From the IMG/VR virus record IMGVR_UViG_3300030060_004838, positions 1 through 64,000 of that record: a stretch of 64,000 nucleotides of DNA. One strand, 5' to 3'. Position numbers and translations under genes: made by a program. The notes below the pieces were generated by a model. The model saw only the letters and a program-made list of their open reading frames with translations, did no database searches and was not told the origin of the DNA. This DNA comes from a virus. Below, in pieces: positions 38,224 through 58,835 of the stretch; within the stretch, counting starts at the first letter, position 1; each line of letters begins with the position of its first letter.

Positions 38224-38430
38224 ATGGTAAAGATAACAATTTTGAATGAAACAGGACACACAGAACTAACTCTAAGTGCTAATGAAGCATTAGACCAAAT
38301 TATTGACCACCCTACCCATTGGGCATATATTGATGGTGAATTGGTTACAAGAGAAGAAATTGCTAACATTGATTTTAATGCGGTTGATGAAGTCGTATTA
38401 ACACAAGCAATTGTTGGCGGTTCTGTTTAA
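38224..38430 (+). CDS. Ubiquitin-like (beta-grasp, ThiS/MoaD/SAMP-like) protein precursor
   Basis: 68 aa; WAYIDGELV..DEVVLTQAIVGG-SV, i.e. di-Gly plus a 2-residue extension. Confidence 0.75.
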   Translation: MVKITILNETGHTELTLSANEALDQIIDHPTHWAYIDGELVTREEIANIDFNAVDEVVLTQAIVGGSV

Positions 38431-38591
38431 GTTTCTAAATAAAATAGAAATCACCCGTAAGGGTTTAGGTGGCACACTATTTATGCGTAAATAGTATTAC
38501 TAAAGTTAGTGGAACTTACCAAAATCCACACAACACATAGCAGTTTCCCGTCTGCTTTATCAAAACGGGATTTTTTTATTGAGGATTTACT

Positions 38592-38999
38592 ATGAGTAAT
38601 TTTTGGAGAAAGAGTGAAGGTGCCGATGACTTTATCGAAATAGCGAGGATAGCATTGGGTAAAAATATAAAAGAAGATTATACTGAATGGTGTCATTATG
38701 CAAACCCAATGCATTTTTGTAAATACCCTGTATTTCATAAAGGGTTTGAAACATTATTAGCGGAGTGGAGAAATGAAGTTAATAGCCCAAAGATACAAAA
38801 ATCAAGTTATTTAAGTGCAAATTTAAATTTAAAAGTTGCTGATGAATTTGAAGAATGGAGAAATTTATATCTAATTCGCAAGGTAGATGATTACCTTAGT
38901 AGACACTTAAGATGGTCTAACAGTCAAAACCCAAAACAACAATTTGGTAGAGCAAAAGATATATTTATTTATTTCCAGAAAGAGGCGAATTATCAATGA
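38592..38999 (+). CDS. Hypothetical protein
   Basis: 135-aa ORF, GAGG RBS. Confidence 0.6.
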   Translation: MSNFWRKSEGADDFIEIARIALGKNIKEDYTEWCHYANPMHFCKYPVFHKGFETLLAEWRNEVNSPKIQKSSYLSANLNLKVADEFEEWRNLYLIRKVDDYLSRHLRWSNSQNPKQQFGRAKDIFIYFQKEANYQ

Positions 39000-39304
39000 T
39001 AAATGACATATTGAAAACTCTTCGTGCGATGCCAAAACTGTTCAAAGAGTTTAGAAAAGAAACAAAATACATTAATAGGTTATCAAAAATGGAAAAGAAG
39101 GAAGGAATGGTAGGAACTTTTCTTCATGTATTTGAAACAGAATTAATGGACATACTACCAACAGAAGTATTAGTATTAATACTAACAGAATTCGTAAAAG
39201 AGTATGAAAGCAAAAAAGAAGAACATCAGCATGATATGGATGTTGTAAATATACCTGCTTTTAATGCTTATTGTGATAAATATGGGGTAAAAACTGCCCT
39301 ATGA
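38996..39304 (+). CDS. Hypothetical protein
   Basis: 102-aa ORF. Confidence 0.6.
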   Translation: MINDILKTLRAMPKLFKEFRKETKYINRLSKMEKKEGMVGTFLHVFETELMDILPTEVLVLILTEFVKEYESKKEEHQHDMDVVNIPAFNAYCDKYGVKTAL

Positions 39305-39314
39305 AATACAAAAT

Positions 39315-39402
39315 GCTAAGGTGGCTGAGTTTGGTTAAAAGCGCAGGGCTTAAATTCCTGTCCAAAAATGGTTCGTAGGTTCAAATCCTACCCTTAGCAC
39401 CA
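39315..39402 (+). tRNA. tRNA-Leu(UAA)
   Basis: Acceptor GCTAAGG/CCTTAGC + A + encoded CCA; anticodon arm CAGGG-CTTAAAT-TCCTG; long variable arm; T-loop GTTCAAATC. Confidence 0.93.
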
Positions 39403-39411
39403 ATTCAAAAA

Positions 39412-39651
39412 GTGATGATTATGTATAGAAACAGAAAAGAAATTAAGAAAATGACAAAAGCAATAGAATCTTTAGGTGTTGAAATTGTTGATTTTGAAAT
39501 TAGCAAACATTTTAAGATTCGGGTTAAAAATCCGACAACAGGAACTGTAAAATTAATTACAGTTTCAAGTAGTCCAAAATGTAAGGGGGTTTATCATGAG
39601 ATTAAATCCTCAGTAAGAAAAGTTTTTAGAAAAGAAGGTGAAATAATATGA
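39412..39651 (+). CDS. HicA-like (dsRBD-fold) protein
   Basis: SLGVEIV..SKHFKIRV..ITVSSSP pattern. Confidence 0.45.
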   Translation: MMIMYRNRKEIKKMTKAIESLGVEIVDFEISKHFKIRVKNPTTGTVKLITVSSSPKCKGVYHEIKSSVRKVFRKEGEII

Positions 39652-39929
39652 GTTATAAATGTATAAGTTGTGAAAAAGAGATAGAGGTAGTAGAAACAGG
39701 CTCAGAGGAAAAGATATTAAATCCTAAAAAAGCAGTAATGCTTCTTTCTTATGCAGCGTATGGTAGTAAATTTGACTATGGTAAAACATCGTATAATTAC
39801 AGTAGTAAAGTTAGTATGTTTTTTATGTGCGATGATTGCTTTGAAAAGAATATTTCAATGGCTGTTAAATTAACAACATTGTCTAATGGTAAAATAGAAC
39901 CAGCAGTACTACCTAATTCTAATGAATAA
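39648..39929 (+). CDS. Zinc-binding hypothetical protein
   Basis: CISC..YGSKFD..CDDC. Confidence 0.6.
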   Translation: MSYKCISCEKEIEVVETGSEEKILNPKKAVMLLSYAAYGSKFDYGKTSYNYSSKVSMFFMCDDCFEKNISMAVKLTTLSNGKIEPAVLPNSNE

Positions 39930-39985
39930 TTTGAAAATAACTAATTATGGACCTAATAAAACCGTAATTTTTTACAAAAAACCCT

Positions 39986-40468
39986 ATGATTAAAATTGTA
40001 GGTAATATATATGGTGATAAAATGAGAATAACAGAATTTTACAAAGAGTATGACATAGATGAAGAAGCCTACGATTTCGTACCAACCAAGATGTTTGAAT
40101 TAGATTTAAAACAATCAGGATGGAAGATTAAAGAGGGTAAATCTTTATCAAAATTGCATGATAAATTTAATGACTTAAATATTATCTGTGCTAACCCTAA
40201 CTTTTATAACGATGGAACAATAATTGCAGAAAGCCGAAAAAGCATAATTCAAGCGAGTGGACACCCTATTATCAAATATAATAACAAAGAATATTGGGAA
40301 ATAGGCCATTTAGTAAAAATTTACGGTGATGAAGCAATAAAAGAAATGGATAAATGGGAGTGGCTTCAAGTAATGGATTGGATAATAGTAGAAAAGAAAA
40401 CAAATAAACTTCTACTACAATTTGATTCATGGGAAGATTTACCAACAAGAAAGGAAGTGGAACAATGA
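39986..40468 (+). CDS. Hypothetical protein
   Basis: 160-aa ORF, likely start MRITEFY. Confidence 0.55.
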   Translation: MIKIVGNIYGDKMRITEFYKEYDIDEEAYDFVPTKMFELDLKQSGWKIKEGKSLSKLHDKFNDLNIICANPNFYNDGTIIAESRKSIIQASGHPIIKYNNKEYWEIGHLVKIYGDEAIKEMDKWEWLQVMDWIIVEKKTNKLLLQFDSWEDLPTRKEVEQ

Positions 40469-42324
40469 CAAGAGCAAATAAAATATTAAGTGATGTAACT
40501 GTGCATATGAAATACGCAAAATATGTACCTGAGAAAGAAAGAAGAGAAACATGGAGTGATATATGTTTTAGAAATATGCAAATGCATACTAAACAATACC
40601 CACAATTAAAAGAACAAATAGAACAGATATATTCTGAGTTTGTAGTAACAAAGAAAGTATTACCTTCTATGCGTTCTTTACAGTTTGGAGGAAAGCCGAT
40701 TGAAGTAGCACCCAATAGAATTTATAATTGTGCATATATGCCCGTAGATAATATTGCTGCTTTTTGGGAATCAATGTTTTTACTTCTTGGCGGAACAGGC
40801 GTAGGATATTCAGTACAGTTTAATCATATAGATAAACTACCAGAAATAAAACAACCTAATTCTAAAAGAACAAGAAGATATTTAATTGGTGATTCGATTG
40901 AAGGTTGGGCTGATGCAGTTAAGGTATTAATTAAATCTTATTTTGGTAGACTTTCAAGCACACCAATATTTGATTATTCTGATATTCGTGCAAAAGGTGA
41001 AAGATTAATTACTTCTGGAGGAAAAGCACCCGGCCCTCAACCGTTAAAAGAATGTTTAGTTAAAGTTGAAGGAATTCTAAAAGATGTTCAAACAGGGGAT
41101 AGATTATCTCCTATTCAAGCACATGATATTATGTGTCATATTGCTGATGCAGTTTTAGCAGGTGGTATTAGACGAGCCGCTTTGATTTCTTTATTTAGTG
41201 CAGATGATATGGATATGATAACTGCAAAAACGGGTAATTGGTGGGAACTAAATCCACAAAGAGGAAGGGCTAATAATTCAGCCGTTCTTATTAGAAGTAG
41301 AATTGATAAAGACTATTTTATGAATTTATGGAAAAGAATTGAAGAATCAGGTTCTGGAGAGCCAGGAATTTATTTTTCAAACGATAAAGATTGGGGAACA
41401 AACCCGTGTTGTGAAATTGCATTAAGACCAAATCAATTTTGTAATCTAACAGAAATAAATGTAAGTGATGTTGAAAGTCAAGAGGATTTAAATTCAAGAG
41501 TTACTGCGGCTACCATATTAGGAACTTTACAAGCAGGTTATACCGATTTCCATTATCTAAGAGAAACATGGAAAACTACAACAGAAAAGGATGCATTACT
41601 TGGTGTTAGTATGACAGGTATTGCTTCTAATAAACTAAAAGGATTAGATTTAAAATTAGCGGCAAGATTATCAAAGAAAGTTAATGAAACAATTGCTAAA
41701 GAAATAGGAATAAAACCTGCGGCAAGAATTACTTGTGTAAAACCTGCGGGAACTACATCTTGTGTTTTAGGAACTTCAAGTGGTATTCATGCATGGCATG
41801 ACGATTATTATATTAGAAGGATAAGAGTTGGAAAGAATGAAGCAATTTATAATTATTTAGTTGAAAACCACCCATCTATTATTGAAGACGAACAGTTTAG
41901 ACCACACGATACTGCTGTAATTTCTTTACCACAAAAAGCACCCGAAGGTTCTACAACAAGAAGTGAAGATGCAATTCAATTACTTGAGAGAGTAAAAAAT
42001 ATTGCTACTAATTGGGTAAATGAAGGACATACATTAGGTATGAATACTCATAATGTTTCAGCAACCATTTCAATTAGAAAATGGGAATGGGAAGAAGTTG
42101 GAAATTGGATGTGGAATAACAGGAAATTTTACAACGGTTTGTCTGTATTGCCCTATGATGGCGGAACATATGTTCAAGCCCCATTTGAGTCAATTACAAG
42201 GCTAAAATACGACCAAATGATAGCGGGTTTAGATGAGATAGACTTGACTAAAATTATTGAAACAGAAGATAATACAGATTTACAGGGCGAGGTTGCTTGT
42301 GCAGGTGGCCTTTGTGAAATCTAA
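40465..42324 (+). CDS. nrdJ: Class II (adenosylcobalamin-dependent) ribonucleotide reductase
   Basis: YNCA, NPCCEI, FCNLTE, TCVKPAGTTS, C-terminal ACAGGLCEI; no beta subunit nearby. Confidence 0.92.
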   Translation: MTRANKILSDVTVHMKYAKYVPEKERRETWSDICFRNMQMHTKQYPQLKEQIEQIYSEFVVTKKVLPSMRSLQFGGKPIEVAPNRIYNCAYMPVDNIAAFWESMFLLLGGTGVGYSVQFNHIDKLPEIKQPNSKRTRRYLIGDSIEGWADAVKVLIKSYFGRLSSTPIFDYSDIRAKGERLITSGGKAPGPQPLKECLVKVEGILKDVQTGDRLSPIQAHDIMCHIADAVLAGGIRRAALISLFSADDMDMITAKTGNWWELNPQRGRANNSAVLIRSRIDKDYFMNLWKRIEESGSGEPGIYFSNDKDWGTNPCCEIALRPNQFCNLTEINVSDVESQEDLNSRVTAATILGTLQAGYTDFHYLRETWKTTTEKDALLGVSMTGIASNKLKGLDLKLAARLSKKVNETIAKEIGIKPAARITCVKPAGTTSCVLGTSSGIHAWHDDYYIRRIRVGKNEAIYNYLVENHPSIIEDEQFRPHDTAVISLPQKAPEGSTTRSEDAIQLLERVKNIATNWVNEGHTLGMNTHNVSATISIRKWEWEEVGNWMWNNRKFYNGLSVLPYDGGTYVQAPFESITRLKYDQMIAGLDEIDLTKIIETEDNTDLQGEVACAGGLCEI

Positions 42325-42427
42325 TACAATATGTAATAGATAAAAAATGTAGTTTTACTATTTTCTACACGATAGGATGGATATTCCACCCTTTTCAAAA
42401 AAATAGAATTAAAAAGGAAATGATAGA

Positions 42428-42643
42428 ATGAGCGAAAGCAAGGATTATGAAAATGAAGAAAGATATGAAGTGTTTAGGATAACTTCTTTGAAGTCAAACG
42501 GTAGCGTTTGGACAAAACAATACGATAGCAATATTGATTGGAATAAGGTAATACCAATGTTATTATCTAAGTTTCCACATATTTTGCTAAGTAAGCAAGT
42601 AATGAAGACAGACCCACTAACACACTTAATGAATTTGGAGTGA
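42428..42643 (+). CDS. Hypothetical protein
   Basis: 71-aa ORF. Confidence 0.5.
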   Translation: MSESKDYENEERYEVFRITSLKSNGSVWTKQYDSNIDWNKVIPMLLSKFPHILLSKQVMKTDPLTHLMNLE

Positions 42644-42648
42644 TATAA

Positions 42649-42882
42649 ATGAAAAAAGCAGTAGAATTTAGATTGATAGAAAGCGAAGAAATGCCACCTG
42701 TGGTAATTAAGAAAGATGAAGATACTAACGGATGTATTATTGTATTAAATAGAGCACATACTATTTGGCTTAGTTTAAATCGTAGTACAATTCCAGGAAT
42801 TACACAAAGTTTAGCCGAAAAACTAAATCAAATGTGTGATGGTTATTTAGAACAACAATTATTCAATATGGGAATGGAGTGA
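42649..42882 (+). CDS. Hypothetical protein
   Basis: 77-aa ORF with GGAGTGA RBS. Confidence 0.6.
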   Translation: MKKAVEFRLIESEEMPPVVIKKDEDTNGCIIVLNRAHTIWLSLNRSTIPGITQSLAEKLNQMCDGYLEQQLFNMGME

Positions 42883-42887
42883 TTTGA

Positions 42888-44087
42888 ATGGAAGATTTTA
42901 TTGGACACCATATAGAAGGCGAACATAGACATGAAATTAATATTAATCAAAGCGGGGCTTTCAATAAATCACTAATTAATAATTTAGTAGATATAAGTGT
43001 ATCTAATGATTGGGAAGAAGCAAAACATGAATGGAGAGCAACAGGTAATGTTTGGTATAGACCTATGAGATATTTAGATACTACAATACAAGAATTACCT
43101 GAACCTCATTGTGATAATCACCCTAATTATTGTGTTTGTGGACACCCGATTGCTTGGCATTTTGAAGTAGAAAATACTGAAAATGGTACATTAGAAATTC
43201 TTGGTAGTGAACACATTACAAATTGGATGATTATTAGACACTTAAAAGAAAACAAAGGTATTCCTGAAGATGCAATTACTGAAGAAAAAATTATTGAATG
43301 GATGAAAGAAGCAGTTAAAACTATGAAAGCCGAATGGTGGTGGAAAGAACATGGTGATGATTGGGAAGAAATGTTTAATGAAGTTAAAGAATTAGATTTA
43401 AGAATCAATGTTCGTTCTAATGGACAATATTGGGATTCTTCTACAAAAAGACATGAAGATAAAATGGTTATTGCAAAAACCAAAACTAATTCATTAGGTA
43501 AAATGGCTTCTGTTGTATGGAGATGGAATCACCCTGATAATCCAAGACGACAAATTGATACAAGAGGTTATCCTAATGAAAAACTTTGGAGAGATGTGCA
43601 ATTGTTATTTGCTAAGGCTCAAAGATTTGAAAAGCAATTAGATATACAAATGGAAGAAGTAGAACAAAGAAAATCATATATCCGTGAACAACAAGCAAAG
43701 CAAGATGAATTGGCTGAACAAAGAAGAATGATGATTAAAGAAGAAGCCATGAAAATTAGAGCAGAAGCAATATATGAAAGAGATGATAAAACATTAGCGG
43801 AGGCTTGTGAGTATTATGATTTACCACCTTTCACAGTAGAGAAAGGTAATAATGAATGGGAAAGAAATTTCTTGAAAGATATGAAAGGTAAAATTATTGC
43901 AAGAAAACAACTTTCACCAAGACAATTAAACAGAATATTACAAATTATTATGCCCGAAGTGGCTGAAGAAGAACCTGCAACATCAAAACAAATTAATTAT
44001 ATTAAAAAGTTAGGTGGAGAGGTTTTAGAAAACATGACAAAAACCCAAGCAAGTGATTTGATTGGTGAATTATTAAGGAGAAATTAA
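42888..44087 (+). CDS. Hypothetical protein with a Zn-binding motif and a C-terminal PAT.KQ..YI..LG domain
   Basis: CVCGHPI..N..NG..GSEHI; PATSKQINYIKKLG..TKTQASDLI. Confidence 0.7.
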   Translation: MEDFIGHHIEGEHRHEININQSGAFNKSLINNLVDISVSNDWEEAKHEWRATGNVWYRPMRYLDTTIQELPEPHCDNHPNYCVCGHPIAWHFEVENTENGTLEILGSEHITNWMIIRHLKENKGIPEDAITEEKIIEWMKEAVKTMKAEWWWKEHGDDWEEMFNEVKELDLRINVRSNGQYWDSSTKRHEDKMVIAKTKTNSLGKMASVVWRWNHPDNPRRQIDTRGYPNEKLWRDVQLLFAKAQRFEKQLDIQMEEVEQRKSYIREQQAKQDELAEQRRMMIKEEAMKIRAEAIYERDDKTLAEACEYYDLPPFTVEKGNNEWERNFLKDMKGKIIARKQLSPRQLNRILQIIMPEVAEEEPATSKQINYIKKLGGEVLENMTKTQASDLIGELLRRN

Positions 44088-44088
44088 A

Positions 44089-45342
44089 ATGGGAACAGTA
44101 ACATTTAGAGTAAGACATGCAAGCGATGACAGAAACTCAGTATTAGAAACAACACTATCTTGTAATAAATTTACAAGAGATAGAAATGTAGATATTTGGG
44201 CACAAAGACAAAGACAGAATATTTCTAAAGAACCGACAATTGAAAGTATTCACAATACACTTAAGGGAACATTGAATATAACAGGATTAGTTAGAAGCGA
44301 TGAAAAGAAGTCCTTGTTTATGAGAGTAGGTAATTGTAAATATCTAATTAATATGCGTAAAGTAGGAAATAGATATATGGCTAATGGAGATTTTGCTAAC
44401 TTAGATACTATTATGAAAGCAATTAGTAGAACTATTATGCGTTCTGCTTATATTAATGGAGAAGGTCAAGAAGCACAAGAAGCATTAGATGATTATTTTC
44501 TAAGATGTGTTGAAGTGCCTGAAAATGTTTCTTATGCTATGGAAAATAGAGTGCCATATAAATTCTTTGAGAGAGATGGTAGTGAAATCCATGAAAGAAG
44601 CACAAGACTTTCTTTAATGAGAATTGCTCAAAACAATTATGCTCTTGAAATTAGTAGTGGTGTTTGGGGAGAAATAAATGCTAAGAATCTAAATACATTT
44701 ATTAATTCTTATTTGTATAATAAGCGTTCAGGAAAATGGTATATGGTTTCTCCTGCTGAACTTTGGTTTAGAACTGTTGGTACAAAAGGAACTCCTGCAC
44801 AGATTAAAATTATGAAAGAGTTTTTGAAACAAAATAGAAGAAGTGATTTGGCTGAACAAAGGGCTATGCAATTGTTTAATGATATGGTCAATAAATATGA
44901 TACTGTCACAAAAGGAACATTTGAAAGAAATGGAGAAAAGGTTTTGGCTATGTTTGTTAGAGGTAAATATGCTGATTGGATGATTGTTGATAATAAATCA
45001 AAGCGTGGAATCCAAGATGTAAGCACATATGTTTTGACAACAAAAACATTAGGAGAAGGACAAGCAGTTACTGTTTTAGATAATGTAATAAATAATACTG
45101 ACAAAGAACCTTATTGGGCTGGACCGATTTGTATTGATAATTTATCAAGTGGTGCTTCTGTTGGTGACCAATTTGCAGCAAGAGCATTTGCTTGTATGAA
45201 TGATACTATGCTTCTTAAATTAGTTTCTACTGTTAGTAGATATATTAAAGGGCATGATGCAGAACAAAATGATATAAGGTTGGATTGGGATGCCATGTGT
45301 AAATTGTCAAGCAAAGCACCTGAACTTAAACAAAGAGATTAA
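44089..45342 (+). CDS. Hypothetical protein with a C-terminal Cys motif (GPICIDNL), possible E2-like partner
   Basis: 417 aa, in the same run as TFB and ThiF; FVRG..W.I...GPICID..GDQFAARAFACMND. Confidence 0.5.
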   Translation: MGTVTFRVRHASDDRNSVLETTLSCNKFTRDRNVDIWAQRQRQNISKEPTIESIHNTLKGTLNITGLVRSDEKKSLFMRVGNCKYLINMRKVGNRYMANGDFANLDTIMKAISRTIMRSAYINGEGQEAQEALDDYFLRCVEVPENVSYAMENRVPYKFFERDGSEIHERSTRLSLMRIAQNNYALEISSGVWGEINAKNLNTFINSYLYNKRSGKWYMVSPAELWFRTVGTKGTPAQIKIMKEFLKQNRRSDLAEQRAMQLFNDMVNKYDTVTKGTFERNGEKVLAMFVRGKYADWMIVDNKSKRGIQDVSTYVLTTKTLGEGQAVTVLDNVINNTDKEPYWAGPICIDNLSSGASVGDQFAARAFACMNDTMLLKLVSTVSRYIKGHDAEQNDIRLDWDAMCKLSSKAPELKQRD

Positions 45343-45913
45343 TTTACCTGTTTGTTCAGTTTGTGGTTGTATTCAGGCATATAGAATATATGAGGTAAGT
45401 GATATACCTAAAAATGAAAAAACATTTAGCACAGACTTAATGATGCTTATGAATGAGTTTGATATAGAAGATAAAGATGAAGTTATCAAAAATGATAAAT
45501 ATATTTCTTATACTAATATATATTATACTTATGATTTAGCGGAGAGGGCTTGTGCTATCTTATACTATACTATGAGGGATTTAAATAAACCTGCTATCAT
45601 GTTGGATTATTGTAAATTTTTGGGATGCAAAACAAGTAGAGTAAGTAGACTTGCAAAAAGAATAGCAAGACATTATTCAAATAGTGGAGTGTTTGGTATA
45701 AATGATATTGACGAGTTTTTGGATAATATGGAAATCAATAGTAAAGAAATTAGTGAAGCGTGTAAAGCGTGGAATGAGCAACAAACCTTGACAAGAGGAA
45801 TAATTGCGGCATATGTATATGAACACACAACATATACTCAAAAACAAGTGTGTGAAAAATTTGGAGTTAGTTTGCCAAGATTAAAAAGAAACTTAAGGAA
45901 AGTGAGAAAATGA
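45290..45913 (+). CDS. tfb: Transcription factor B (TFB/TFIIB)-like protein
   Basis: N-terminal CxxC..VCSVCG Zn ribbon, cyclin-like repeats, C-terminal HTH TQKQVCEKFGVS. Confidence 0.75.
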   Translation: MPCVNCQAKHLNLNKEINLPVCSVCGCIQAYRIYEVSDIPKNEKTFSTDLMMLMNEFDIEDKDEVIKNDKYISYTNIYYTYDLAERACAILYYTMRDLNKPAIMLDYCKFLGCKTSRVSRLAKRIARHYSNSGVFGINDIDEFLDNMEINSKEISEACKAWNEQQTLTRGIIAAYVYEHTTYTQKQVCEKFGVSLPRLKRNLRKVRK

Positions 45914-46464
45914 AAAAGAGAGATGTATTGATAATAGGCGCAGGTGGAATTGGAAGTTTTCTAATACCATTGTTGGATAAAGTAGGATTGTATGACATAA
46001 CAGTTTATGACCCTGATATTGTAGAGGAAAAGAATCTAACATATCAAAACTTTACCAAAGTAGACTTAGAAAAGAAAAAGGTAGATGCTATGAGTGAAAG
46101 ATATAATATTGATGCTCAACCATATCCTGTTCTAACAGCAGGACAATTAAAGGGATATGATTTGGTAGTATGTTGTGCTGATAATTTAGATATTAGAAGA
46201 ACAATGTATAATTCAAATGTTAAATGGTTAGACTTAAGAGCACAAGCAAGAAACGCTGCTATGATTTCACATTTAGAAGACCCGAAATTATATACTGTTT
46301 TTACAAGTGGACCAGATGGTTCTTTTTCTTGTCAAGGAGAATGGGATGGAAAACCTGAAGGGATTAATTTTATGCAAGTTGTAATTGCAGGTTATGGCGC
46401 ACAATGGATTCAAAGATTCTTTACAGGCGACCATGTAGAAAAACACTTTAAAATTAATGGGTGA
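45910..46464 (+). CDS. ThiF/MoeB/E1-family adenylyltransferase
   Basis: IIGAGGIGS, YDPDIVEEKNL.YQ, KKVDA, VCCADN..R, putative catalytic SCQ. Confidence 0.88.
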   Translation: MKKRDVLIIGAGGIGSFLIPLLDKVGLYDITVYDPDIVEEKNLTYQNFTKVDLEKKKVDAMSERYNIDAQPYPVLTAGQLKGYDLVVCCADNLDIRRTMYNSNVKWLDLRAQARNAAMISHLEDPKLYTVFTSGPDGSFSCQGEWDGKPEGINFMQVVIAGYGAQWIQRFFTGDHVEKHFKING

Positions 46465-46776
46465 TATAATGTCTAAGATTGATTATAATAAACAATCTAA
46501 AAAATTACTAATAGCCATGTTAGAAGAACAAGATGATATTATTAATGCAGTATGTAACTTTATGGGAACATCTACTGTTATGGATTTATTTATGTCTTTT
46601 AAAGGAGAGGAAGAAGAATGAAAAACGAATGGATTTGGATGAGAGATATTATTAAAAAGATAGAAGATTTAGGATATGCAGTAGTTAATGACATAGGAGA
46701 TGAAGAAGATGAGTGAATTAATTATAGGAATTATAGGTATGGTATGTTTGTATGTTATAGGAAAATTTCTTTATAG

Positions 46777-47325
46777 ATGGGAGGAAGAATAATGAATTTC
46801 TTTTACATAGAAACTTGCCCTGTCGCTATTGCTAAAAGTCATAACAATGCACATTGTATTAAAATGATTTTAGAATATGCACAAATGCTATCTACGACTC
46901 ATAGAGTTGTAGACCAATATTATCATGAAGTAGATGGTAAATATGTATTTGTAGGATTACCCAAAGATATGCAAAAAGTGTACAAGATTGCTCATTTAAA
47001 TCACCCCACTACAATTTGGGTTAGAGAATCTGTACAACATTACAATTTTATGTTTGATGTATTTGAAGCATTATGTGATGAATATACTTATCGTTATGGT
47101 AAAGTGCATCAATCAGATAGATTATTAAGAGAGATGTTAAGAAAACCACCATCAAGATTAGAAGATAATGGATTTGAAGAACCGCCTCAATGTATGCCTG
47201 ATAAATATAAAGTAGAAGGAAATAGTCTACAAGCCTATCGTAATTTTTACATGGGTGATAAACAATGGAAAGGTTGGAGAAGTGAATATAAGAAAAGAGA
47301 TAAACCAAAATGGATGTGTGTATAA
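46777..47325 (+). CDS. Pyrimidine-dimer DNA glycosylase (DenV/Pyr_excise)-like protein
   Basis: MNFF..KMILEYAQMLST..HLNHP..WVRES..EYTYRYGKVH..PQCMPD..AYRNFY. Confidence 0.7.
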   Translation: MGGRIMNFFYIETCPVAIAKSHNNAHCIKMILEYAQMLSTTHRVVDQYYHEVDGKYVFVGLPKDMQKVYKIAHLNHPTTIWVRESVQHYNFMFDVFEALCDEYTYRYGKVHQSDRLLREMLRKPPSRLEDNGFEEPPQCMPDKYKVEGNSLQAYRNFYMGDKQWKGWRSEYKKRDKPKWMCV

Positions 47326-47519
47326 TGACAGAATGGAAATTAGGAATAGGAACAGGAAATGCAAAATGTAGAGTATGTGGTAAGCCAATTAAAGAAGGCC
47401 AACCAATGATTAAAATAATTAATTCAAGGATTAGTGGACAGGTTCATTCTAATCCCTTTGAATGTGGAAAAGAAAGACAAGAACAATTAGGATTTGAATA
47501 TGTAGGAGAGGAAGTATAA
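47310..47519 (+). CDS. Small zinc-finger protein
   Basis: AKCRVCGKPIKEG..H...C. Confidence 0.55.
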   Translation: MDVCIMTEWKLGIGTGNAKCRVCGKPIKEGQPMIKIINSRISGQVHSNPFECGKERQEQLGFEYVGEEV

Positions 47520-47962
47520 TGATAGAAAGAATGAATGATAATGAACTGTGGGATATGTGTAAAGATTTGATAAATGCCGCTTATGTAAATAATTATGATG
47601 ATGAAGATTTTCATGCATCTATTTGGCAGGTATCAGTAGATTTACTTGAAGGAAAAGAAGTTTCTGTAATTGTAGATAAAGATAATAAATTATTTATTAG
47701 TAGAGGAACTGCAAGTTTCGTAGACTACAAAAATGAAAATGTAGCAGGTATGAAAATCCCTCTTAAATGCTGGATTCATACTCACCCTTTTGGAACTGCT
47801 TATTTTAGTAGCACAGATTGGGGAACAATTAATGCCCAAGCACCTATATTAAATTCAGCAATTGTTCTTGGAAATAAGGAGAGAATGAAATGGTGGAAGA
47901 ACGATGGAAAAGAATTTCTGAGCAAGACTCATCTAATGGATTTAGACGAGTGCGAAGAATAA
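47519..47962 (+). CDS. JAB/JAMM (MPN+) metallopeptidase
   Basis: Catalytic E (KEVSV) and HTHPFGTAYFSSTD = HxHx7Sx2D. Confidence 0.88.
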   Translation: MIERMNDNELWDMCKDLINAAYVNNYDDEDFHASIWQVSVDLLEGKEVSVIVDKDNKLFISRGTASFVDYKNENVAGMKIPLKCWIHTHPFGTAYFSSTDWGTINAQAPILNSAIVLGNKERMKWWKNDGKEFLSKTHLMDLDECEE

Positions 47963-48312
47963 GATTCCCTGTATTATCAAACTTAATTATAGAATGCCCT
48001 ATTTGTAATGGGGCTAAATGTAATGTTTGTAATCAAACAGGTGAATATGAATTATCTTCAGAACCGTATGTAGAAATCCAACAACCTTTGATAATAAAAT
48101 ATATTGTTGATAATTTACCAATTATTGCAAGTGAAATTCAAAGACTATATGGAAAAACACCAACGGTAGAAACTTATTTTGTTTCTGAAGAATATGAAAT
48201 AATTAGAGTCGATTCTCTAAGTGGTTCGGTTTGGATTGCCTTAAACCTTAAAAAATTAGAAAATCCAAAATATTTTTACAACAAGGAGAGTGTAGATAAA
48301 TGGTTAGCGTAA
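47890..48312 (+). CDS. DnaJ-type zinc-finger protein
   Basis: CPICNG..CNVCNQTG; true start probably later. Confidence 0.55.
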   Translation: MVEERWKRISEQDSSNGFRRVRRIRFPVLSNLIIECPICNGAKCNVCNQTGEYELSSEPYVEIQQPLIIKYIVDNLPIIASEIQRLYGKTPTVETYFVSEEYEIIRVDSLSGSVWIALNLKKLENPKYFYNKESVDKWLA

Positions 48313-48740: not shown

Positions 48741-50228
48741 ATGATGTGGAATGAATTTGCAAGAGTTAATGAAGAATTTATAGATATGACACCTACACAA
48801 ATGGTAAAGTATTTTGATGAAAACCCGATGGATAATACTGAAGAAATATTAAACCTATGGGCAAGAAATTATCCTAATAATGGTGCAGGTGAATCAGGTC
48901 TTATATCAAGAGTAGCAAAAAGATATGGAGTAGATGTTGATACAATTGAAACTTTAGTAGAAATACATGGTGGAGTAGGTGAAGCAATTGAAACTTTATT
49001 TGATGAGGCTGATGGAAATAGAGATATTACAGTATCAGATGTTTATAGTGCTTTACATGGACAAGATATGGAAACTGTATTTACTGAAATAATGGATTGC
49101 TTTGACAATGTAAATGCTATGGGTAAGAAATGGCTTGCTGCTTTTCTTCTAAATCAAACAAGAAATAAATGTGGTAATAATGTTGTTAAAAAGATTTTAC
49201 AAAAGACATACGGTATTCCTGCTGATGATATTAAGAAAGCAGTAAGTTTCCTACCTATCGAAGATGTAATTTACCAAGCAGTTAATAATGGTGCTTTAGT
49301 ATATGTTCCCGAAGCAGGTAATTATATGAAACCAATGTTAGCAAAAGGTGGAGATTTTACAGTAAGAAATCGTAGATTCTGTGATTATAAATATGATGGT
49401 ATTAGAGCACAAATTCATAATAGTGAAGAAGGTATTACAATCTTCAATAGAAAGGGTGATGATATTACATCTAAATTTGCTAATGATTTGGTCGAAGTAA
49501 TAAAGAAAAATTCTGACCCTGTTGATTGGATTGCTGATGGGGAAATATATCCTATTGATGCTGACGGTAATCCTGCTGAATTTAAAAATATCATGAGTCG
49601 TATTCATGGTAAAACAGATGATGTTATTTATCGTAATCCTGTAACTATTAAATTATTTGACTGTATGATGTATGGTGGACAACCCGTGTTTGAAGATGAT
49701 TTAGATACCCGTTGGGAAACTTTGAAAATGCATTTTGATAATAGTTTAGTTGCTAAAATGATAGAAATTAACTCTCATGAAGAAATGTTAGAAGTTTATA
49801 ATGATGCTATTGAAGCAGGGTTTGAAGGAGTAATTGTAAAAGACCCTGAAATGATTTATGAATTTGGTGCAAGAAGTAAAGGTTGGTTAAAGTATAAACC
49901 ACCTATGGTTGAAGTAGATGCTATTATTACAGGTGCTACAATGGGAACAGGAAAAAGAGCAGGTGTTTATGGTGCTTATGATATTTCTATTAAAGATGGA
50001 GATAATTTAATTTCTGTTGGAAAAGTAGGAAGTGGATTTACAGATTCTGACCTAACATTTTTAACCCAAGAGTATAACCGATTAGGCGCAGGGAATTTAA
50101 TTATTGAGGTAAAAGGTGACATGCTTACTAAAAATGAATCAGGAGATTATGGATTAAGATTTCCAAGATATGTTAAATACCGAGATGATAAAGAAGAACC
50201 TACACAATTAAAAGAAATATTGGAGTGA
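48741..50228 (+). CDS. lig: ATP-dependent DNA ligase
   Basis: KYDGIR, DGEI, FDC, EGVIVKD, WLKYK, LRFPR. Confidence 0.93.
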   Translation: MMWNEFARVNEEFIDMTPTQMVKYFDENPMDNTEEILNLWARNYPNNGAGESGLISRVAKRYGVDVDTIETLVEIHGGVGEAIETLFDEADGNRDITVSDVYSALHGQDMETVFTEIMDCFDNVNAMGKKWLAAFLLNQTRNKCGNNVVKKILQKTYGIPADDIKKAVSFLPIEDVIYQAVNNGALVYVPEAGNYMKPMLAKGGDFTVRNRRFCDYKYDGIRAQIHNSEEGITIFNRKGDDITSKFANDLVEVIKKNSDPVDWIADGEIYPIDADGNPAEFKNIMSRIHGKTDDVIYRNPVTIKLFDCMMYGGQPVFEDDLDTRWETLKMHFDNSLVAKMIEINSHEEMLEVYNDAIEAGFEGVIVKDPEMIYEFGARSKGWLKYKPPMVEVDAIITGATMGTGKRAGVYGAYDISIKDGDNLISVGKVGSGFTDSDLTFLTQEYNRLGAGNLIIEVKGDMLTKNESGDYGLRFPRYVKYRDDKEEPTQLKEILE

Positions 50229-57532: not shown

Positions 57533-57805
57533 ATGCCAATGTCTGACCATCAAGATTCTGAAAACTTTGCTTATGATAAAACATGGGAACAAATTGAAGC
57601 ACTTTTAGATGAGGCTGAAAGAGAACAAAATAGAAGATGGGTAGCATTTCAAAAATGCCCACCAACTTTAAGACAACAACATTGGAATAATTATAAAGGA
57701 TTAGAAGGAGTAATTAATGCTCTTAGATGGGTTCTTGGCGACCTTAAAACGCCAAAAGATAAAGTATTAGGGAGAGATAGATTTGAAAATAGAAGAAAGA
57801 GATAG
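57533..57805 (+). CDS. Hypothetical protein
   Basis: Likely start MPMSDHQDSENF..KGLEGVINALRWVLGD. Confidence 0.6.
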   Translation: MPMSDHQDSENFAYDKTWEQIEALLDEAEREQNRRWVAFQKCPPTLRQQHWNNYKGLEGVINALRWVLGDLKTPKDKVLGRDRFENRRKR

Positions 57806-58835
57806 TTTAACTTATGATGATATTAGTATTATACCGAGTATGTCTGATATAAAATCAAGAAGTCATTGTGATACAGCAGTTGGATTCGGCAATTTTAATT
57901 TAAATGTGCCATTAATTGCTTCACCAATGGACACAGTTTGCGGTTCAGAAATGTGTATTGAATTAGCAAAACTTGGTGGGATTGGAGTATTGCATAGATT
58001 TCAAAATATCAAAGAACAGGTAGCATTATGCTATGATATTGAAGCAGAAGTAAGAGGACAATATATTGCTGCAATTGGTGTAGGCCAAAGAGGTAAAAAT
58101 AGATTTGATTCTTTAGTAGGTTATACTAATATTCAAGGTGTCTGTATTGATGTAGCACATGGCGACCATGAATTAGTAGGTGAAATGATTTCTTATATTA
58201 AAGAAGAATTTGAAGATGTACATGTAATGGCAGGTAATATTGTAACTAAAGGTGCGGCTGAAAGATTAATTGAAGCAGGTGCTGATTCTTTAAGAGTAGG
58301 AATAGGTAATGGTTCTATGTGTGAAACAAGAATTAGAGCAGGTGTAGGAGTTCCTCAAGCAACAGCATTATTAGATATTGCATATCATATAAATGAAGTT
58401 TTAGACTTAGATGAAATACCATATATTATTGCTGATGGTGGTTGTAAAACAGTAGGAGATATTCCTAAAGCAATTGCTCTTGGTGCTGATGCAGTTATGA
58501 TAGGTTCTTTATTTGCAGGAACAAAAGAAACTCCTGGAATTATATCTAAAATGGGTCAATGGCCTAATGAACAATTATACAAAAAGTATCAAGGTTCAGC
58601 ATCTATTGATTCTAAAACAGCAAGGGGTGAAGAAACTAAAAATGTAGAGGGTAATTCTAAAATTACACCATACAAAGGAAAGGTAAGAAGAATAGTTGAA
58701 GATATATCTGATGGAATTAAAAGTTCTATGAGTTATGTTGGGGCATATACAATTGCTGATTTCCAAACTAAAGCAAAGTTTTGTAGAGTTACACAAGCAG
58801 GACAATTAGAAGCAAAACCACACGGATTATATTAG
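57783..58835 (+). CDS. guaB: IMP dehydrogenase / GMP reductase family protein lacking the CBS subdomain
   Basis: [29 protein letters not shown] (catalytic Cys), ADGG, YQGSAS, VEG, MSYVGA. Confidence 0.85.

What the first reader, a model, noticed from the sequence alone, without database searches (positions are those of the whole stretch)
38224..47962. Virus-encoded ubiquitin-like conjugation system (Ubl precursor + E1 + JAB)
Seen: Ubl 38224-38430 ending ..IVGG-SV, ThiF/E1 45910-46464 with a candidate catalytic Cys, and JAMM peptidase 47519-47962. No thiamine, molybdopterin or tRNA-thiolation enzymes are present. Established: JAB proteases trim Ubl extensions to expose GG for E1 adenylation; haloarchaeal SAMPylation tags proteins including TBP for the proteasome; bacterial Bil systems use Ubl/E1/E2/JAB in antiviral defence. 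Inference: the virus runs its own protein-tagging pathway to redirect the host proteasome, remodel transcription (E1 is coupled to the viral TFB gene) or counter host Ubl defence.
Basis: partly seen in the sequence, partly recalled or inferred. Interest (0 to 1): 0.8.

Follow-up and report, generated by a model that had tools for sequence, protein, structure and literature searches.

The report
Magrovirus ubiquitin-like protein-tagging gene set
This 96-kb ocean virus of archaea carries a small ubiquitin-like tag made as a precursor, a stripped-down activating enzyme, a trimming protease and a virus-only protein with an E2-like domain, so it probably tags proteins itself, but on unknown targets and with nothing tested at the bench.

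Summary
The window encodes a 68-aa beta-grasp protein ending AIVGG-SV, a 184-aa ThiF/E1-like enzyme, and a 147-aa peptidase with a complete JAMM motif.

All three are core genes of magrovirus-type contigs. In 70 Ubl-anchored loci with enough flank, E1 is present in 70 and JAB in 69. All 131 Ubl genes end in A[IV]VGG followed by 0-9 hypervariable residues.

The 417-aa protein just upstream (44089-45342) has a C-terminal domain predicted to adopt the UBC/E2 fold, with an invariant Cys348. It co-occurs 70/70, and in divergent lineages it sits in a compact Ubl-E2like-TFB-E1-JAB cluster. A real TFB homologue lies between the E2-like gene and E1 in 154/154 loci.

The best reading is a virus-owned Ubl conjugation cascade that works like bacterial BilABCD. 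It differs in having a minimal E1 that lacks the canonical Arg, the zinc sites and a Cys domain.

A sulfur-carrier role is not excluded, because JAMM-trimmed capped carriers exist. However, no sulfur-relay enzyme was found in the genome. The E2 assignment rests on predicted fold only (Z 4-5.5) with no sequence link.

Targets are unknown, so the proteasome and transcription ideas remain speculation.

This scan has already reported the same set on at least 28 other genomes. I found no paper describing it.

The parts
38224..38430 (+). Ubl precursor, 68 aa, beta-grasp. Mature C-terminus is G65-G66 (38416-38421). The two-residue cap S67-V68 (38422-38427) is predicted to be removed.
   Evidence: AIVGG is invariant with a variable tail. 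AF2 pLDDT is 79.8 with b-b-a-b-b-a-b topology. Fold searches are dominated by Ub/NEDD8/SUMO/MoaD/ThiS/SAMP1/Urm1. No Pfam, NCBIfam, PHROG or PADLOC hit.
44089..45342 (+). 417-aa virus-only protein. The N-terminal ~250 aa are of unknown role. The C-terminal domain (aa ~250-400, nt 44821-45339) has a predicted UBC/E2-like fold with invariant Cys348 (45130-45132) in the motif GPICIDN. It is the candidate Ubl carrier (E2-like).
   Evidence: Alignments A4 and A7 keep C348, D360, Q361, R365, N371, D372 and T381 invariant. AF2 pLDDT is 83.4. About 28 of 50 rows and 50 of 50 rows are UBC/UEV fold, Z 3.6-5.5. It is present in 32/32 and 70/70 loci. There is no sequence link to E2 families.
45290..45913 (+). 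Viral TFB/TFIIB homologue, short 207-aa form with an N-terminal CxxC...CxxC zinc ribbon. It is interleaved between the E2-like gene and E1. It overlaps the E2-like gene by 53 nt and E1 by 4 nt. Whether it takes part in the Ubl pathway is unknown.
   Evidence: It lies between the E2-like gene and E1 in 154/154 loci. The family profile matches human TFIIB at 3.6e-12, Pyrococcus TFB core at 6.5e-12 and Brf1 at 1.6e-9. 15 of 26 members hit Pfam Zn_Ribbon_TF. The window copy alone gives no significant hit.
45910..46464 (+). Minimal E1-like adenylyltransferase, 184 aa (ThiF superfamily). It has the Gly-rich loop G10-G15, D34/D36, K57 and D91-N92. The candidate catalytic Cys141 is at 46330-46332. Tyr45 replaces the canonical Arg.
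   Evidence: Pfam ThiF scores 4.4e-16. It is below every NCBIfam equivalog cut-off. The best PDB profile matches are a ThiF-type protein, MccB, UBA5 and Cap2 at about 1e-8. At least 693 clusters, all about 185 aa.
47519..47962 (+). JAMM/MPN+ metallopeptidase, 147 aa. The catalytic set is E47, H87-x-H89, S97 and D100 (47777-47818 covers HxH...D). It is the predicted Ubl-tail trimming protease and possible deconjugase.
   Evidence: The motif is invariant in 33 sequences. The profile matches AMSH-LP at 3.5e-5, AMSH/Sst2 at 2e-4 and Caldiarchaeum Rpn11-like at 0.024. It lies downstream of E1 in 78/80 and 69/70 loci.

Best explanation
The virus encodes a self-contained ubiquitin-like conjugation pathway with four dedicated parts.

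Step 1 (inferred): the JAMM peptidase removes the two-residue cap (SV) from the 68-aa precursor and exposes Gly-Gly.

Step 2 (inferred from family membership): the 184-aa E1-like enzyme, probably as a homodimer, adenylates the terminal Gly with ATP. It may hold the Ubl as a thioester on Cys141.

Step 3 (inferred from predicted fold and an invariant Cys): the Ubl passes to Cys348 of the E2-like C-terminal domain of the 417-aa protein. That protein's N-terminal ~250 aa, and the hypervariable loop before the Cys, would choose targets without an E3.

Step 4 (inferred): the Ubl is attached to lysines of unknown viral or host proteins. The JAMM peptidase may also reverse this.

What is shown here: the genes, their families or folds, the conserved catalytic residues, the invariant GG with hypervariable caps, and their strict co-occurrence and clustering across hundreds of viral contigs. 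What is not shown: any enzymatic step or any target.
For: Ubl:
- 131/131 homologues end in A[IV]VGG plus 0-9 residues, with 38 different tails. 13 stop exactly at GG.
- The predicted fold is beta-grasp.

E1:
- ThiF at 4.4e-16, with the nucleotide loop, DxD, K57, DN and an invariant Cys141.

JAB:
- The full JAMM motif is invariant. The nearest solved relatives are isopeptidases: AMSH-LP, AMSH and Rpn11-like.

E2-like domain:
- The topology is a1, b1-b4, variable loop, Cys, then a2-a4.
- All 50 rows of the second look are UBC/UEV proteins aligned over the whole E2 core. For example, UbcH5 1-147 aligns to model 251-398, with 103-125 residues aligned and Z 4.0-5.5.
- The independent wide search also lists the E2 modules of bacterial BubCD and Cap2 and the ASFV E2.
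- The Cys is invariant even at 25-31% identity.

Linkage:
- From E1 anchors, JAB is present in 78/80 loci and the Ubl in 32/32 full-flank loci.
- From Ubl anchors, E1 is 70/70, E2-like 70/70 and JAB 69/70.
- In divergent lineages the four genes lie within 4.3-5.5 kb in the order Ubl, E2-like, TFB, E1, JAB.

No sulfur-relay or acceptor family was found in the 96-kb genome.

Parallels with experimentally characterised BilABCD (PMC10557695):
- A conserved Gly followed by up to nine non-conserved residues, removed by the JAB.
- A JAB closest to AMSH.
- An E2 with a hypervariable loop between b4 and the catalytic Cys, and no E3.

Co-fold of E1 with Ubl(1-66):
- The verdict was 'weak support'. Score 0.60 against a best of 3 controls of 0.00.
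- The mark was reached by 58 of 80 solved complexes and 2 of 110 mismatched pairs. At 0.60 or under it was reached by only 7 of those 80 and by both mismatches that passed.
- The runs agree in at least 97% of contacts, and the partner pLDDT is at least 88.
- E1-Ubl complexes of related families are solved, so this may reflect likeness only.
Against: - No step is demonstrated.
- The E2 assignment is structural only and the Z scores are modest (at most 5.5). There is no HPN motif. No sequence or profile link was found to UQ_con, Prok-E2_A or Prok-E2_B. hhalign probability is below 1%, no better than the controls. I could not check residue by residue that Cys348 superposes on the E2 catalytic Cys.
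- The E1 lacks the canonical Arg of NLxRQ (invariant Tyr45), both CxxC zinc pairs, the N-terminal helices and any separate Cys domain or UFD (compare the canonical MoeB). Its chemistry may therefore differ.
- The Ubl has no sequence match to any Ubl family, and its fold matches are weak (Z at most 5.2, Foldseek E at least 8.5e-3).
- All these genes are core genes in a conserved syntenic arm, so co-occurrence alone is less specific than in a mobile operon.
- Capped GG carriers trimmed by JAMM proteases also occur in sulfur transfer.
Confidence: 0.62

Rival explanations
1. Sulfur-carrier pathway. The Ubl is a ThiS/MoaD-type carrier. JAB uncaps it, and the E1 adenylates it so that a host persulfide donor can convert it to a thiocarboxylate. 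That thiocarboxylate then supplies sulfur for a thio-modification of tRNA, DNA or a small molecule made by one of the unassigned viral proteins. The 417-aa protein would be that acceptor enzyme or unrelated.
For: JGI annotated several family members as 'sulfur carrier protein ThiS'. The E1's best NCBIfam hits are ThiF/MoeB models. Sulfur carriers with 1-2-residue caps after GG are uncapped by JAMM proteases such as QbsD and PtmS1 (PMC6006322). The viral tails are mostly 1-2 residues and often end in Cys or Tyr. The fold search also lists MoaD, ThiS, TtuB and CysO.
Against: No rhodanese, cysteine desulfurase, PP-loop thiolase or PAPS-reductase-type domain occurs anywhere in the genome. The E1 scores are far below every ThiF/MoeB equivalog cut-off. 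The strictly linked partner has a UBC-like fold with one invariant Cys, which sulfur pathways do not use. The JAB's nearest solved relatives are deubiquitinases.
Confidence: 0.15
2. E1-only conjugation, as in archaeal sampylation. Ubl, E1 and JAB form the whole system (SAMP/UbaA/HvJAMM1-like). The 417-aa protein is an unrelated core replication-arm protein whose UBC-like prediction is a chance or inactive (UEV-like) resemblance.
For: Haloferax sampylation needs only an E1 and a JAMM protease (PMC4443979, PMC4895103; abstracts). The top structural matches of the 417-aa protein are catalytically inactive Tsg101 UEV domains, and the Z scores are modest. There is no sequence link to any E2 family. 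The host is an archaeon.
Against: The Cys is invariant across about 154 clusters down to 25% identity, together with a fixed surrounding motif. In divergent lineages the Ubl gene lies only ~450-520 bp upstream of this gene. It co-occurs 70/70 with the Ubl. The E1 scores 32 bits against the UbaA model's cut-off of 450.
Confidence: 0.12
3. Interference rather than tagging. The viral Ubl, E1 and JAB act on the host's own Ubl systems. Examples are a decoy Ubl that saturates host enzymes, or a JAB that strips host SAMP-type or defence conjugates. They would not build a viral conjugation pathway.
For: Bacterial Ubl systems act in antiviral defence (PMC10557695), so a counter-measure is conceivable. 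JAB family members are isopeptidases.
Against: A complete, co-evolving writer set (Ubl with an invariant GG, an E1 with intact nucleotide-binding residues, an E2-like Cys protein) is kept in every genome examined. That is more than an eraser or decoy needs. No host defence system of this type was examined here.
Confidence: 0.06

Closest known systems
Bacterial BilABCD systems, Types I and II (Ubl BilA, E2 BilB, JAB DUB BilC, E1 BilD; PMC10557695)
   Same: The same four roles are present. The Ubl has a conserved C-terminal Gly followed by up to nine non-conserved residues that the JAB removes. The JAB is closest to AMSH-type enzymes. The E2 has a hypervariable loop between b4 and the catalytic Cys, and there is no E3. 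In compact viral clusters the gene order starts Ubl then E2, as in bilAB. The Bil Ubl (8tyz_B) appears among the fold matches of the viral Ubl.
   Different: This system is encoded by an archaeal virus as a core gene set, not by a bacterial defence island. The E1 is 184 aa with one adenylation domain, no IAD/AAD tandem, no mobile Cys domain and no zinc site, and it has Tyr in place of the active-site Arg. The E2-like domain is the C-terminus of a 417-aa protein. A TFB gene is interleaved. The order is E1 then JAB rather than DUB then E1. No sequence-level membership was found.
Archaeal sampylation: SAMP1-3, E1 UbaA, HvJAMM1 of Haloferax volcanii (PMC4443979, PMC4895103)
   Same: It works in an archaeal setting. 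It uses a small beta-grasp modifier with a GG end, a ThiF-type E1 without a separate Cys domain, and a JAMM protease. SAMP1 appears among the fold matches.
   Different: Sampylation uses no E2, and SAMPs double as sulfur carriers. The viral E1 scores 32 bits against the UbaA model's 450-bit cut-off. The viral set includes an E2-like protein.
CBASS type II Cap2 (E2-E1 fusion) and Cap3 (JAB) (PMC10097602)
   Same: It has an E1 adenylation domain, an E2 module and a JAB. The viral E1 matches Cap2 in PDB (5.8e-8) and the PADLOC 'E1-E2' models (1.3e-10). The Cap2 E2 module appears among the fold matches of the 417-aa protein.
   Different: Cap2 conjugates the C-terminus of a cGAS-like enzyme, not a dedicated Ubl. 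E2 and E1 are fused there. The matches to the viral E1 cover only its N-terminal Rossmann part.
Capped sulfur-carrier systems: QbsE/QbsC/QbsD (thioquinolobactin) and PtmS2/PtmS1 (PMC6006322)
   Same: There is a small GG protein with a 1-2-residue cap, a JAMM protease that uncaps it, and a ThiF/MoeZ-type activating enzyme.
   Different: Those systems have a rhodanese-bearing or partnered sulfur donor and a sulfur-accepting biosynthetic enzyme. None was found in this genome. They also have no E2-like Cys protein.
Caldiarchaeum subterraneum Ub-E1-E2-RING E3-Rpn11 operon (PMC5654768)
   Same: It is an archaeal, operon-encoded complete cascade. Its Rpn11-like JAMM appears among the viral JAB's PDB matches at 0.024.
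   Different: That system has eukaryote-type ubiquitin, a UQ_con E2 and a RING E3. The virus has no UQ_con match in its genome and no recognised RING.

Membership tests
Ubiquitin-like beta-grasp modifiers/carriers (Ub, SAMP, Urm1, ThiS, MoaD) | beta-grasp fold (b-b-a-b-b-(a)-b) | tested here: met
   AF2 mean pLDDT is 79.8 with exactly this element order. The Foldseek top 50 are all Ub/NEDD8/SUMO/ISG15, with probability up to 0.98 and E at least 8.5e-3. The VIA wide top 50 are nearly all beta-grasp, Z at most 5.2. This rests on a predicted model and the scores are modest.
Ubiquitin-like beta-grasp modifiers/carriers (Ub, SAMP, Urm1, ThiS, MoaD) | C-terminal Gly-Gly as the reactive end | tested here: met
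   A[IV]VGG is present in 131/131 homologues. The tails are 0-9 aa and hypervariable, and 13 genes stop at GG.
Ubiquitin-like beta-grasp modifiers/carriers (Ub, SAMP, Urm1, ThiS, MoaD) | Sequence membership in a curated Ubl/ThiS/MoaD model | tested here: not met
   No hit in Pfam, NCBIfam, PHROGs or PADLOC. The PDB profile search finds nothing at E up to 10.
ThiF/E1-like adenylyltransferases (PF00899) | Pfam model above the curated cut-off; Gly-rich nucleotide loop and Mg/ATP-binding Asp | tested here: met
   59.2 bits against a cut-off of 28.1. G10xG12G13xG15, D34/D36, K57 and D91-N92 are invariant.
ThiF/E1-like adenylyltransferases (PF00899) | Conserved Arg of the NLxRQ motif that contacts ATP | tested here: not met
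   The family has an invariant NL(T/P/S)YQ, with Tyr45. The aligned PDB chains read NLNRQ and NLTRQ. A canonical archaeal MoeB reads NLDRQ.
ThiF/E1-like adenylyltransferases (PF00899) | Two CxxC zinc-binding pairs and a full-length (~240-250 aa) C-terminal Ubl-binding region, as in MoeB/ThiF | tested here: not met
   The protein is 184 aa with only C88, C89 and C141. The Pfam match covers profile positions 20-129 of 238.
ThiF/E1-like adenylyltransferases (PF00899) | Catalytic Cys in or near the crossover loop | tested here: inconclusive
   Cys141 is invariant in GSFSCQG, about 50 residues after the DN motif. That spacing is similar to ThiF/MoeB by my reckoning. No structure or assay is available.
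JAMM/MPN+ metallopeptidases | E...HxHx7Sx2D catalytic motif | tested here: met
   E47, H87, H89 and S97 are invariant. D100 is present in all rows but one, which has a deletion.
JAMM/MPN+ metallopeptidases | Curated family model above the cut-off | tested here: not met
   Prok-JAB scores 19.7 bits against a cut-off of 25. The PADLOC JAB model gives 0.026. The family profile does match AMSH-LP at 3.5e-5.
E2 / UBC-fold conjugating enzymes | UBC fold (a1, four-stranded sheet, Cys loop, a2-a4) | tested here: inconclusive
   The predicted topology fits. 50/50 rows and about 28/50 rows are UBC/UEV/RWD proteins spanning model residues 249-401. However, Z is only 3.6-5.5 and the model is a prediction.
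E2 / UBC-fold conjugating enzymes | Catalytic Cys in the loop after b4 | tested here: inconclusive
   Cys348 is invariant. It follows b4 after a variable loop. In the shortest members the spacing is about 15 residues, as in UbcH5 by my reckoning. No residue-level superposition was available.
E2 / UBC-fold conjugating enzymes | HPN motif upstream of the Cys; sequence membership in UQ_con or Prok-E2 families | tested here: not met
   There is no HPN in the alignment. UQ_con gives no match in the genome. Pfam on 29 members gives nothing relevant. hhalign against Prok-E2_A/B gives probability 0.1-0.2%.
BilABCD-type four-gene Ubl conjugation operon | Ubl + E2 + JAB + E1 encoded together, and a Ubl pre-processed at a conserved Gly | tested here: met
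   Four analogous genes co-occur in 69-70 of 70 loci and cluster within 4.3-5.5 kb in some lineages. Capped GG is seen. This shows a functional analogy only, not homology-based membership.
BilABCD-type four-gene Ubl conjugation operon | E1 with tandem IAD/AAD and a mobile Cys domain; demonstrated conjugation | tested here: not met
   The viral E1 is a single 184-aa domain. Conjugation cannot be tested with these tools.
SAMP-activating E1 UbaA (NF047750) | Equivalog model above the cut-off | tested here: not met
   32.2 bits against a cut-off of 450.
TFB/TFIIB (for the interleaved ORF 45290-45913) | N-terminal zinc ribbon plus a cyclin-fold core that matches TFIIB | tested here: met
   The family profile matches TFIIB at 3.6e-12 over profile positions 15-254, the Pyrococcus TFB core at 6.5e-12 and Brf1 at 1.6e-9. 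Zn_Ribbon_TF hits 15/26 members. The window's short copy alone is not significant.

The most novel reading that the evidence does not exclude
A virus of archaea runs a complete, self-encoded E1-E2-Ubl-deubiquitinase cascade. It is built around the smallest E1 yet seen (184 aa, with no Arg finger, zinc site or Cys domain) and an E2 family found only in these viruses. The viral TFB gene is wedged between E2 and E1 in every genome examined. This hints that the transcription machinery, viral or host TFB/TBP, is what gets tagged during takeover of Marine Group II archaea.
Probability: 0.15. Interest if true: 0.88.

Novelty: new variant of a known kind. Interest (0 to 1): 0.7.

Why it matters
Ubl conjugation in prokaryotes is so far known from cellular systems: archaeal sampylation, and the bacterial Bil, Bub and CBASS defences.

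Here a whole writer/eraser set is a core, vertically kept module of an abundant ocean virus group (about 300 viral contigs in IMG/VR). The papers I could search on these viruses do not mention it.

If it conjugates proteins, three things follow:
- Viruses of archaea would be shown to use protein tagging, as eukaryotic viruses use ubiquitin.
- A 184-aa E1 would define the minimal requirements for Ubl activation.
- There would be a new E2-like family with a built-in targeting region.

It would also give an experimentally tractable handle on virus-host interaction in uncultured Marine Group II archaea, since four small proteins can be reconstituted in vitro.

Tried and rejected
- **Ubl sequence searches.** Pfam, PHROGs, NCBIfam, PADLOC and a PDB profile search at E up to 10 found nothing.
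- **GenBank phage set.** It holds no Ubl match. It has only distant ThiF-like genes (26-36% identity, mostly N-terminal half only) in crAss-like, Flavobacterium and other phages.
- **E2-like domain, sequence level.**
  - The PDB sequence profile gave only a chance MoaD fragment at E 1.8.
  - Pfam on 29 members gave nothing relevant.
  - The exhaustive profile search of 1.84 billion representatives found only 154 clusters of the same architecture, with no bridge to a named family.
  - hhalign against Prok-E2_B (7 sequences) and Prok-E2_A (6 sequences) gave probability 0.2% and 0.1%, no better than unrelated controls. The best 6-column local match did pair GPICI with the dG.lC Cys motif, but that is not significant.
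  - The ESM Atlas gave only unnamed viral clusters.
  - BFVD gave three unnamed full-length homologues.
- **Whole-genome family searches.** UQ_con, PAPS_reduct, ATP_bind_3, Rhodanese and Aminotran_5 gave no match.
- **Cellular origin.** The species-representative genome scan found the mini-E1 only on three contigs of marine bacterial MAGs. These carry the viral E2-like-E1-JAB block, so I read them as mis-binned virus. The Archaeoglobaceae hit is an ordinary MoeB/ThiF among housekeeping genes and was rejected as a relative.
- **Host copy of the kit.** Earlier notes of this scan claim that host archaea carry a diverged copy. I could not test this.
- **PDB entries 9egb/9egc/9egd.** These are the best E1 match, but their identity could not be resolved from the paper library.
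- **Two malformed calls.** Searches used 'of' with a locus and were corrected.

Full report
**What is there**

The window is the first 64 kb of a single 95,975-bp virus record. It has about 31% G+C and a strand switch near 35 kb.

The + strand arm from 36 kb onward carries replication and nucleotide-metabolism genes:
- a class II ribonucleotide reductase
- an ATP-dependent DNA ligase
- an RFC-like AAA ATPase
- an IMPDH/GMP-reductase-family protein
- a family B DNA polymerase
- a PD-(D/E)XK nuclease
- an ERCC4 nuclease

The - strand arms carry the portal, prohead protease, HK97-type capsid and tail tube genes.

This layout, the size and the marine metagenome relatives match the magroviruses of Marine Group II archaea (PMC5434244).

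**The three reported genes**

*The 68-aa protein (38224-38430).* It has no hit in Pfam, PHROGs, NCBIfam or PADLOC. It does belong to a family of 126 clusters found on contigs of up to about 110 kb.

In a 37-sequence alignment, 21 columns are invariant. These include NETGHTEL, HPTHW and the C-terminal AIVGG. After the AIVGG the sequences diverge completely.

Across 131 viral homologues, every one has A[IV]VGG. The tail after it is 0 aa in 13 genes, 1 aa in 17, 2 aa in 92, and 4-9 aa in 9. There are 38 different tails. An invariant GG followed by a free-running cap, sometimes absent, is the signature of a Ubl made as a precursor.

AlphaFold2 with this alignment gives mean pLDDT 79.8 and the element order b-b-a-b-b-a-b. 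Foldseek's best 50 PDB matches are all ubiquitin, NEDD8, SUMO or ISG15, with probability up to 0.98 and E from 8.5e-3. The Foldseek-independent search lists almost only beta-grasp proteins, with Z at most 5.2. These include MoaD, ThiS, TtuB, CysO, SAMP1, Urm1 and the Bil Ubl. The scores are modest, as expected for 68 residues, but the assignment is consistent.

*The 184-aa protein (45910-46464).* It is a ThiF-superfamily enzyme: Pfam 4.4e-16, 59.2 bits against a cut-off of 28.1. Its family has at least 693 clusters, all about 185 aa long.

The invariant residues include the Gly-rich loop, D34/D36, K41-N42, K57, D91-N92, R96, an LDLRxQxR block, and GSFSCQG with Cys141.

It departs from canonical E1-like enzymes in several ways:
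- The Arg of NLxRQ is an invariant Tyr.
- There are no CxxC zinc pairs.
- The Pfam match covers only the first half of the model.
- It is below every NCBIfam equivalog cut-off, with ThiF 47 bits, PRTRC ThiF 40 and UbaA 32.

A canonical archaeal MoeB met in passing shows what is missing. I call this protein a minimal E1.

*The 147-aa protein (47519-47962).* It scores below Pfam's cut-off for Prok-JAB. It nevertheless keeps E47, H87, H89, S97 and D100 across 33 sequences. Its profile matches the deubiquitinases AMSH-LP (3.5e-5) and AMSH/Sst2 (2e-4), and a Caldiarchaeum Rpn11-like protein at 0.024.

**Do they belong together?**

From 80 IMG/VR loci anchored on the E1 (55-89% identity), JAB lies downstream on the same strand in 78. 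The two exceptions end within 70 bp of the E1 gene. The Ubl lies 3-8.6 kb upstream in all 32 loci with full flanks.

In the reciprocal test, 70 Ubl-anchored loci have at least 9.9 kb downstream. E1 is present in 70 and JAB in 69. The exception ends 1.2 kb after E1.

These are core genes of a syntenic arm, so co-occurrence by itself is weaker evidence than in a mobile operon. Gene order helps here. In divergent lineages (L181-L186) the genes form a compact cluster of 4.3-5.5 kb in the order Ubl, E2-like, TFB, E1, JAB.

**A fourth part**

An earlier first-reader note pointed to the 417-aa ORF at 44089-45342 as a possible E2, so I tested it.

It is present in 32/32 and 70/70 loci, always just upstream of E1.

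Its alignment has an invariant C-terminal block: GPICIDN, then GDQ, R, ND and T. The Cys and the D-Q, R, N-D and T residues remain invariant in the most divergent members, at 25-31% identity.

AlphaFold2 gives pLDDT 83.4. The C-terminal domain reads as follows:
- helix 252-269
- four strands between 273 and 319
- a variable insert
- Cys348
- helices 358-370, 372-378, 380-385 and 400-407

This is the UBC order of elements.

The wide structural search returns about 28 UBC/UEV/RWD proteins among its 50 rows. All are aligned to residues about 250-400. They include E2S, UBC12, Ubc13, UBC9, UbcH5, the E2 modules of bacterial BubCD and Cap2, and the ASFV E2. In the second look, all 50 rows are UBC or UEV proteins aligned end to end, with 103-125 residues aligned and Z 4.0-5.5.

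There are real weaknesses:
- Z is low.
- There is no HPN motif.
- No sequence method links the domain to E2 families.
- I could not inspect a residue-level superposition.

I rate the E2-like reading at roughly two in three.

**The TFB**

By tblastn, the ORF between the E2-like gene and E1 seemed poorly conserved. An iterative search then finds it between those two genes in 154/154 loci.

The family profile matches TFIIB/TFB over most of its length. Human TFIIB scores 3.6e-12, the Pyrococcus TFB core 6.5e-12 and Brf1 1.6e-9. In addition, 15 of 26 members hit Pfam's TFIIB zinc ribbon.

The window's 207-aa copy is a shortened form that is not significant on its own. Its stop overlaps the E1 start by 4 nt, and its start overlaps the E2-like gene by 53 nt.

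Whether that has functional meaning is unknown.

**Conjugation or sulfur transfer?**

The triad alone cannot decide this. Sulfur carriers with 1-2-residue caps after GG are uncapped by JAMM proteases such as QbsD and PtmS1 (PMC6006322). JGI annotated some family members as ThiS.

Four things count against a sulfur role:
- No rhodanese, cysteine desulfurase, PP-loop thiolase or PAPS-reductase-type domain exists anywhere in the genome.
- Pfam scans of about 50 of the ORFs show none.
- The JAB's nearest solved relatives are deubiquitinases.
- The tightly linked partner has an E2-like fold with one invariant Cys.

The parallels with experimentally characterised BilABCD are close (PMC10557695):
- a conserved Gly followed by up to nine non-conserved residues that the JAB removes
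- a JAB closest to AMSH
- an E2 with a hypervariable loop between b4 and the Cys, and no E3

**Co-fold**

E1 with Ubl(1-66) gave the verdict 'weak support'. The score was 0.60 against a best of three controls of 0.00.

The mark was reached by 58 of 80 solved complexes and 2 of 110 mismatched pairs. At 0.60 or under, only 7 of those 80 reached it, as did both mismatches that passed.

The runs agree in at least 97% of contacts, and the partner pLDDT is at least 88. Related E1-Ubl complexes are solved, so the pass may only reflect likeness.

**Origin and distribution**

About 296 viral contigs in IMG/VR encode the mini-E1 and 185 encode the Ubl.

Among the species-representative genomes scanned, the family appears only on three contigs of marine bacterial MAGs. 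These carry the viral block, so they are most likely mis-binned virus.

The E2-like family is confined to 154 clusters of one architecture.

**Prior knowledge**

Three papers on magroviruses and Poseidoniales viruses contain no mention of ubiquitin, ThiF, JAB, MoeB or adenylyltransferase. Wider searches found no paper pairing these viruses with a Ubl system. This covers only the open-access library.

Within this scan, the same gene set has already been reported on at least 28 other genomes. Follow-up verdicts there agree with mine. I reached the four-part reading from my own tests before reading those notes.

**Verdict**

The best explanation is a virus-encoded Ubl conjugation cascade of Ubl precursor, JAMM, minimal E1 and E2-like carrier. 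It is a new variant of a known kind.

Confidence is 0.62. The main rivals are a sulfur-carrier pathway (0.15) and E1-only sampylation-like conjugation (0.12). Targets and biological role are unknown.

Noticed in passing
window 47890-48312 (+): A 140-aa protein whose start overlaps the JAB 3' end by 73 nt. It has an invariant CPxCxGxKCxVCxxTG zinc knuckle and is present in 31/32 full-flank loci. It is adjacent to JAB in this lineage but 2-3 kb further downstream in others. It could be an adaptor of the Ubl system or an unrelated core gene.
   Followed up: partly
window 42649-42882 (+): A 77-aa protein conserved in 32/32 full-flank loci with no family hit. Its position relative to the Ubl genes varies.
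   Followed up: partly
window 46777-47325 (+): A 182-aa protein between E1 and JAB matches phrog_624 ('DNA binding protein') at 7.8e-47. It has no Pfam hit and is present in 29/32 loci.
   Followed up: no
window 40429-42324 and 57783-58835 (+): Two nucleotide-metabolism genes. One is a class II (B12-dependent) ribonucleotide reductase. The other is an IMPDH/GMP-reductase-family protein at 2.9e-91. In this genome the RNR separates the Ubl gene from the rest of the set.
   Followed up: no
window 48741-50228 (+) and L082:12114-13973 (-): There are two ATP-dependent ligase-type nucleotidyltransferases in one genome. The second also gives weak RNA-ligase and capping-enzyme matches.
   Followed up: no
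Pfam finds nothing at E up to 0.001, and tblastn finds it in only 8/32 related loci.
   Followed up: partly
L081:6558-14231 (-), i.e. genome 70558-78231: A single 2557-aa ORF lies in the structural arm. I did not annotate it.
   Followed up: no
L083, L084, L085 (contigs of 'Maricaulis sp.' and 'Altibacter sp.' MAGs): Contigs binned into marine bacterial MAGs carry the magrovirus E2-like-TFB-E1-JAB block, and L084 also carries the Ubl. They look like viral contigs mis-binned into bacterial genomes.
   Followed up: partly
GenBank phage records, e.g. crAss001 MH675552.1 81727-82056: crAss-like, Flavobacterium and other phages carry distant ThiF-like genes, often annotated 'thiamine biosynthesis protein'. 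They are 26-36% identical, mostly over the N-terminal half of the viral E1 only. Their partners were not examined.
   Followed up: no
window 21556-23172 (-): A 538-aa protein in the structural arm has an N-terminal GNAT acetyltransferase match at 8.2e-5.
   Followed up: no
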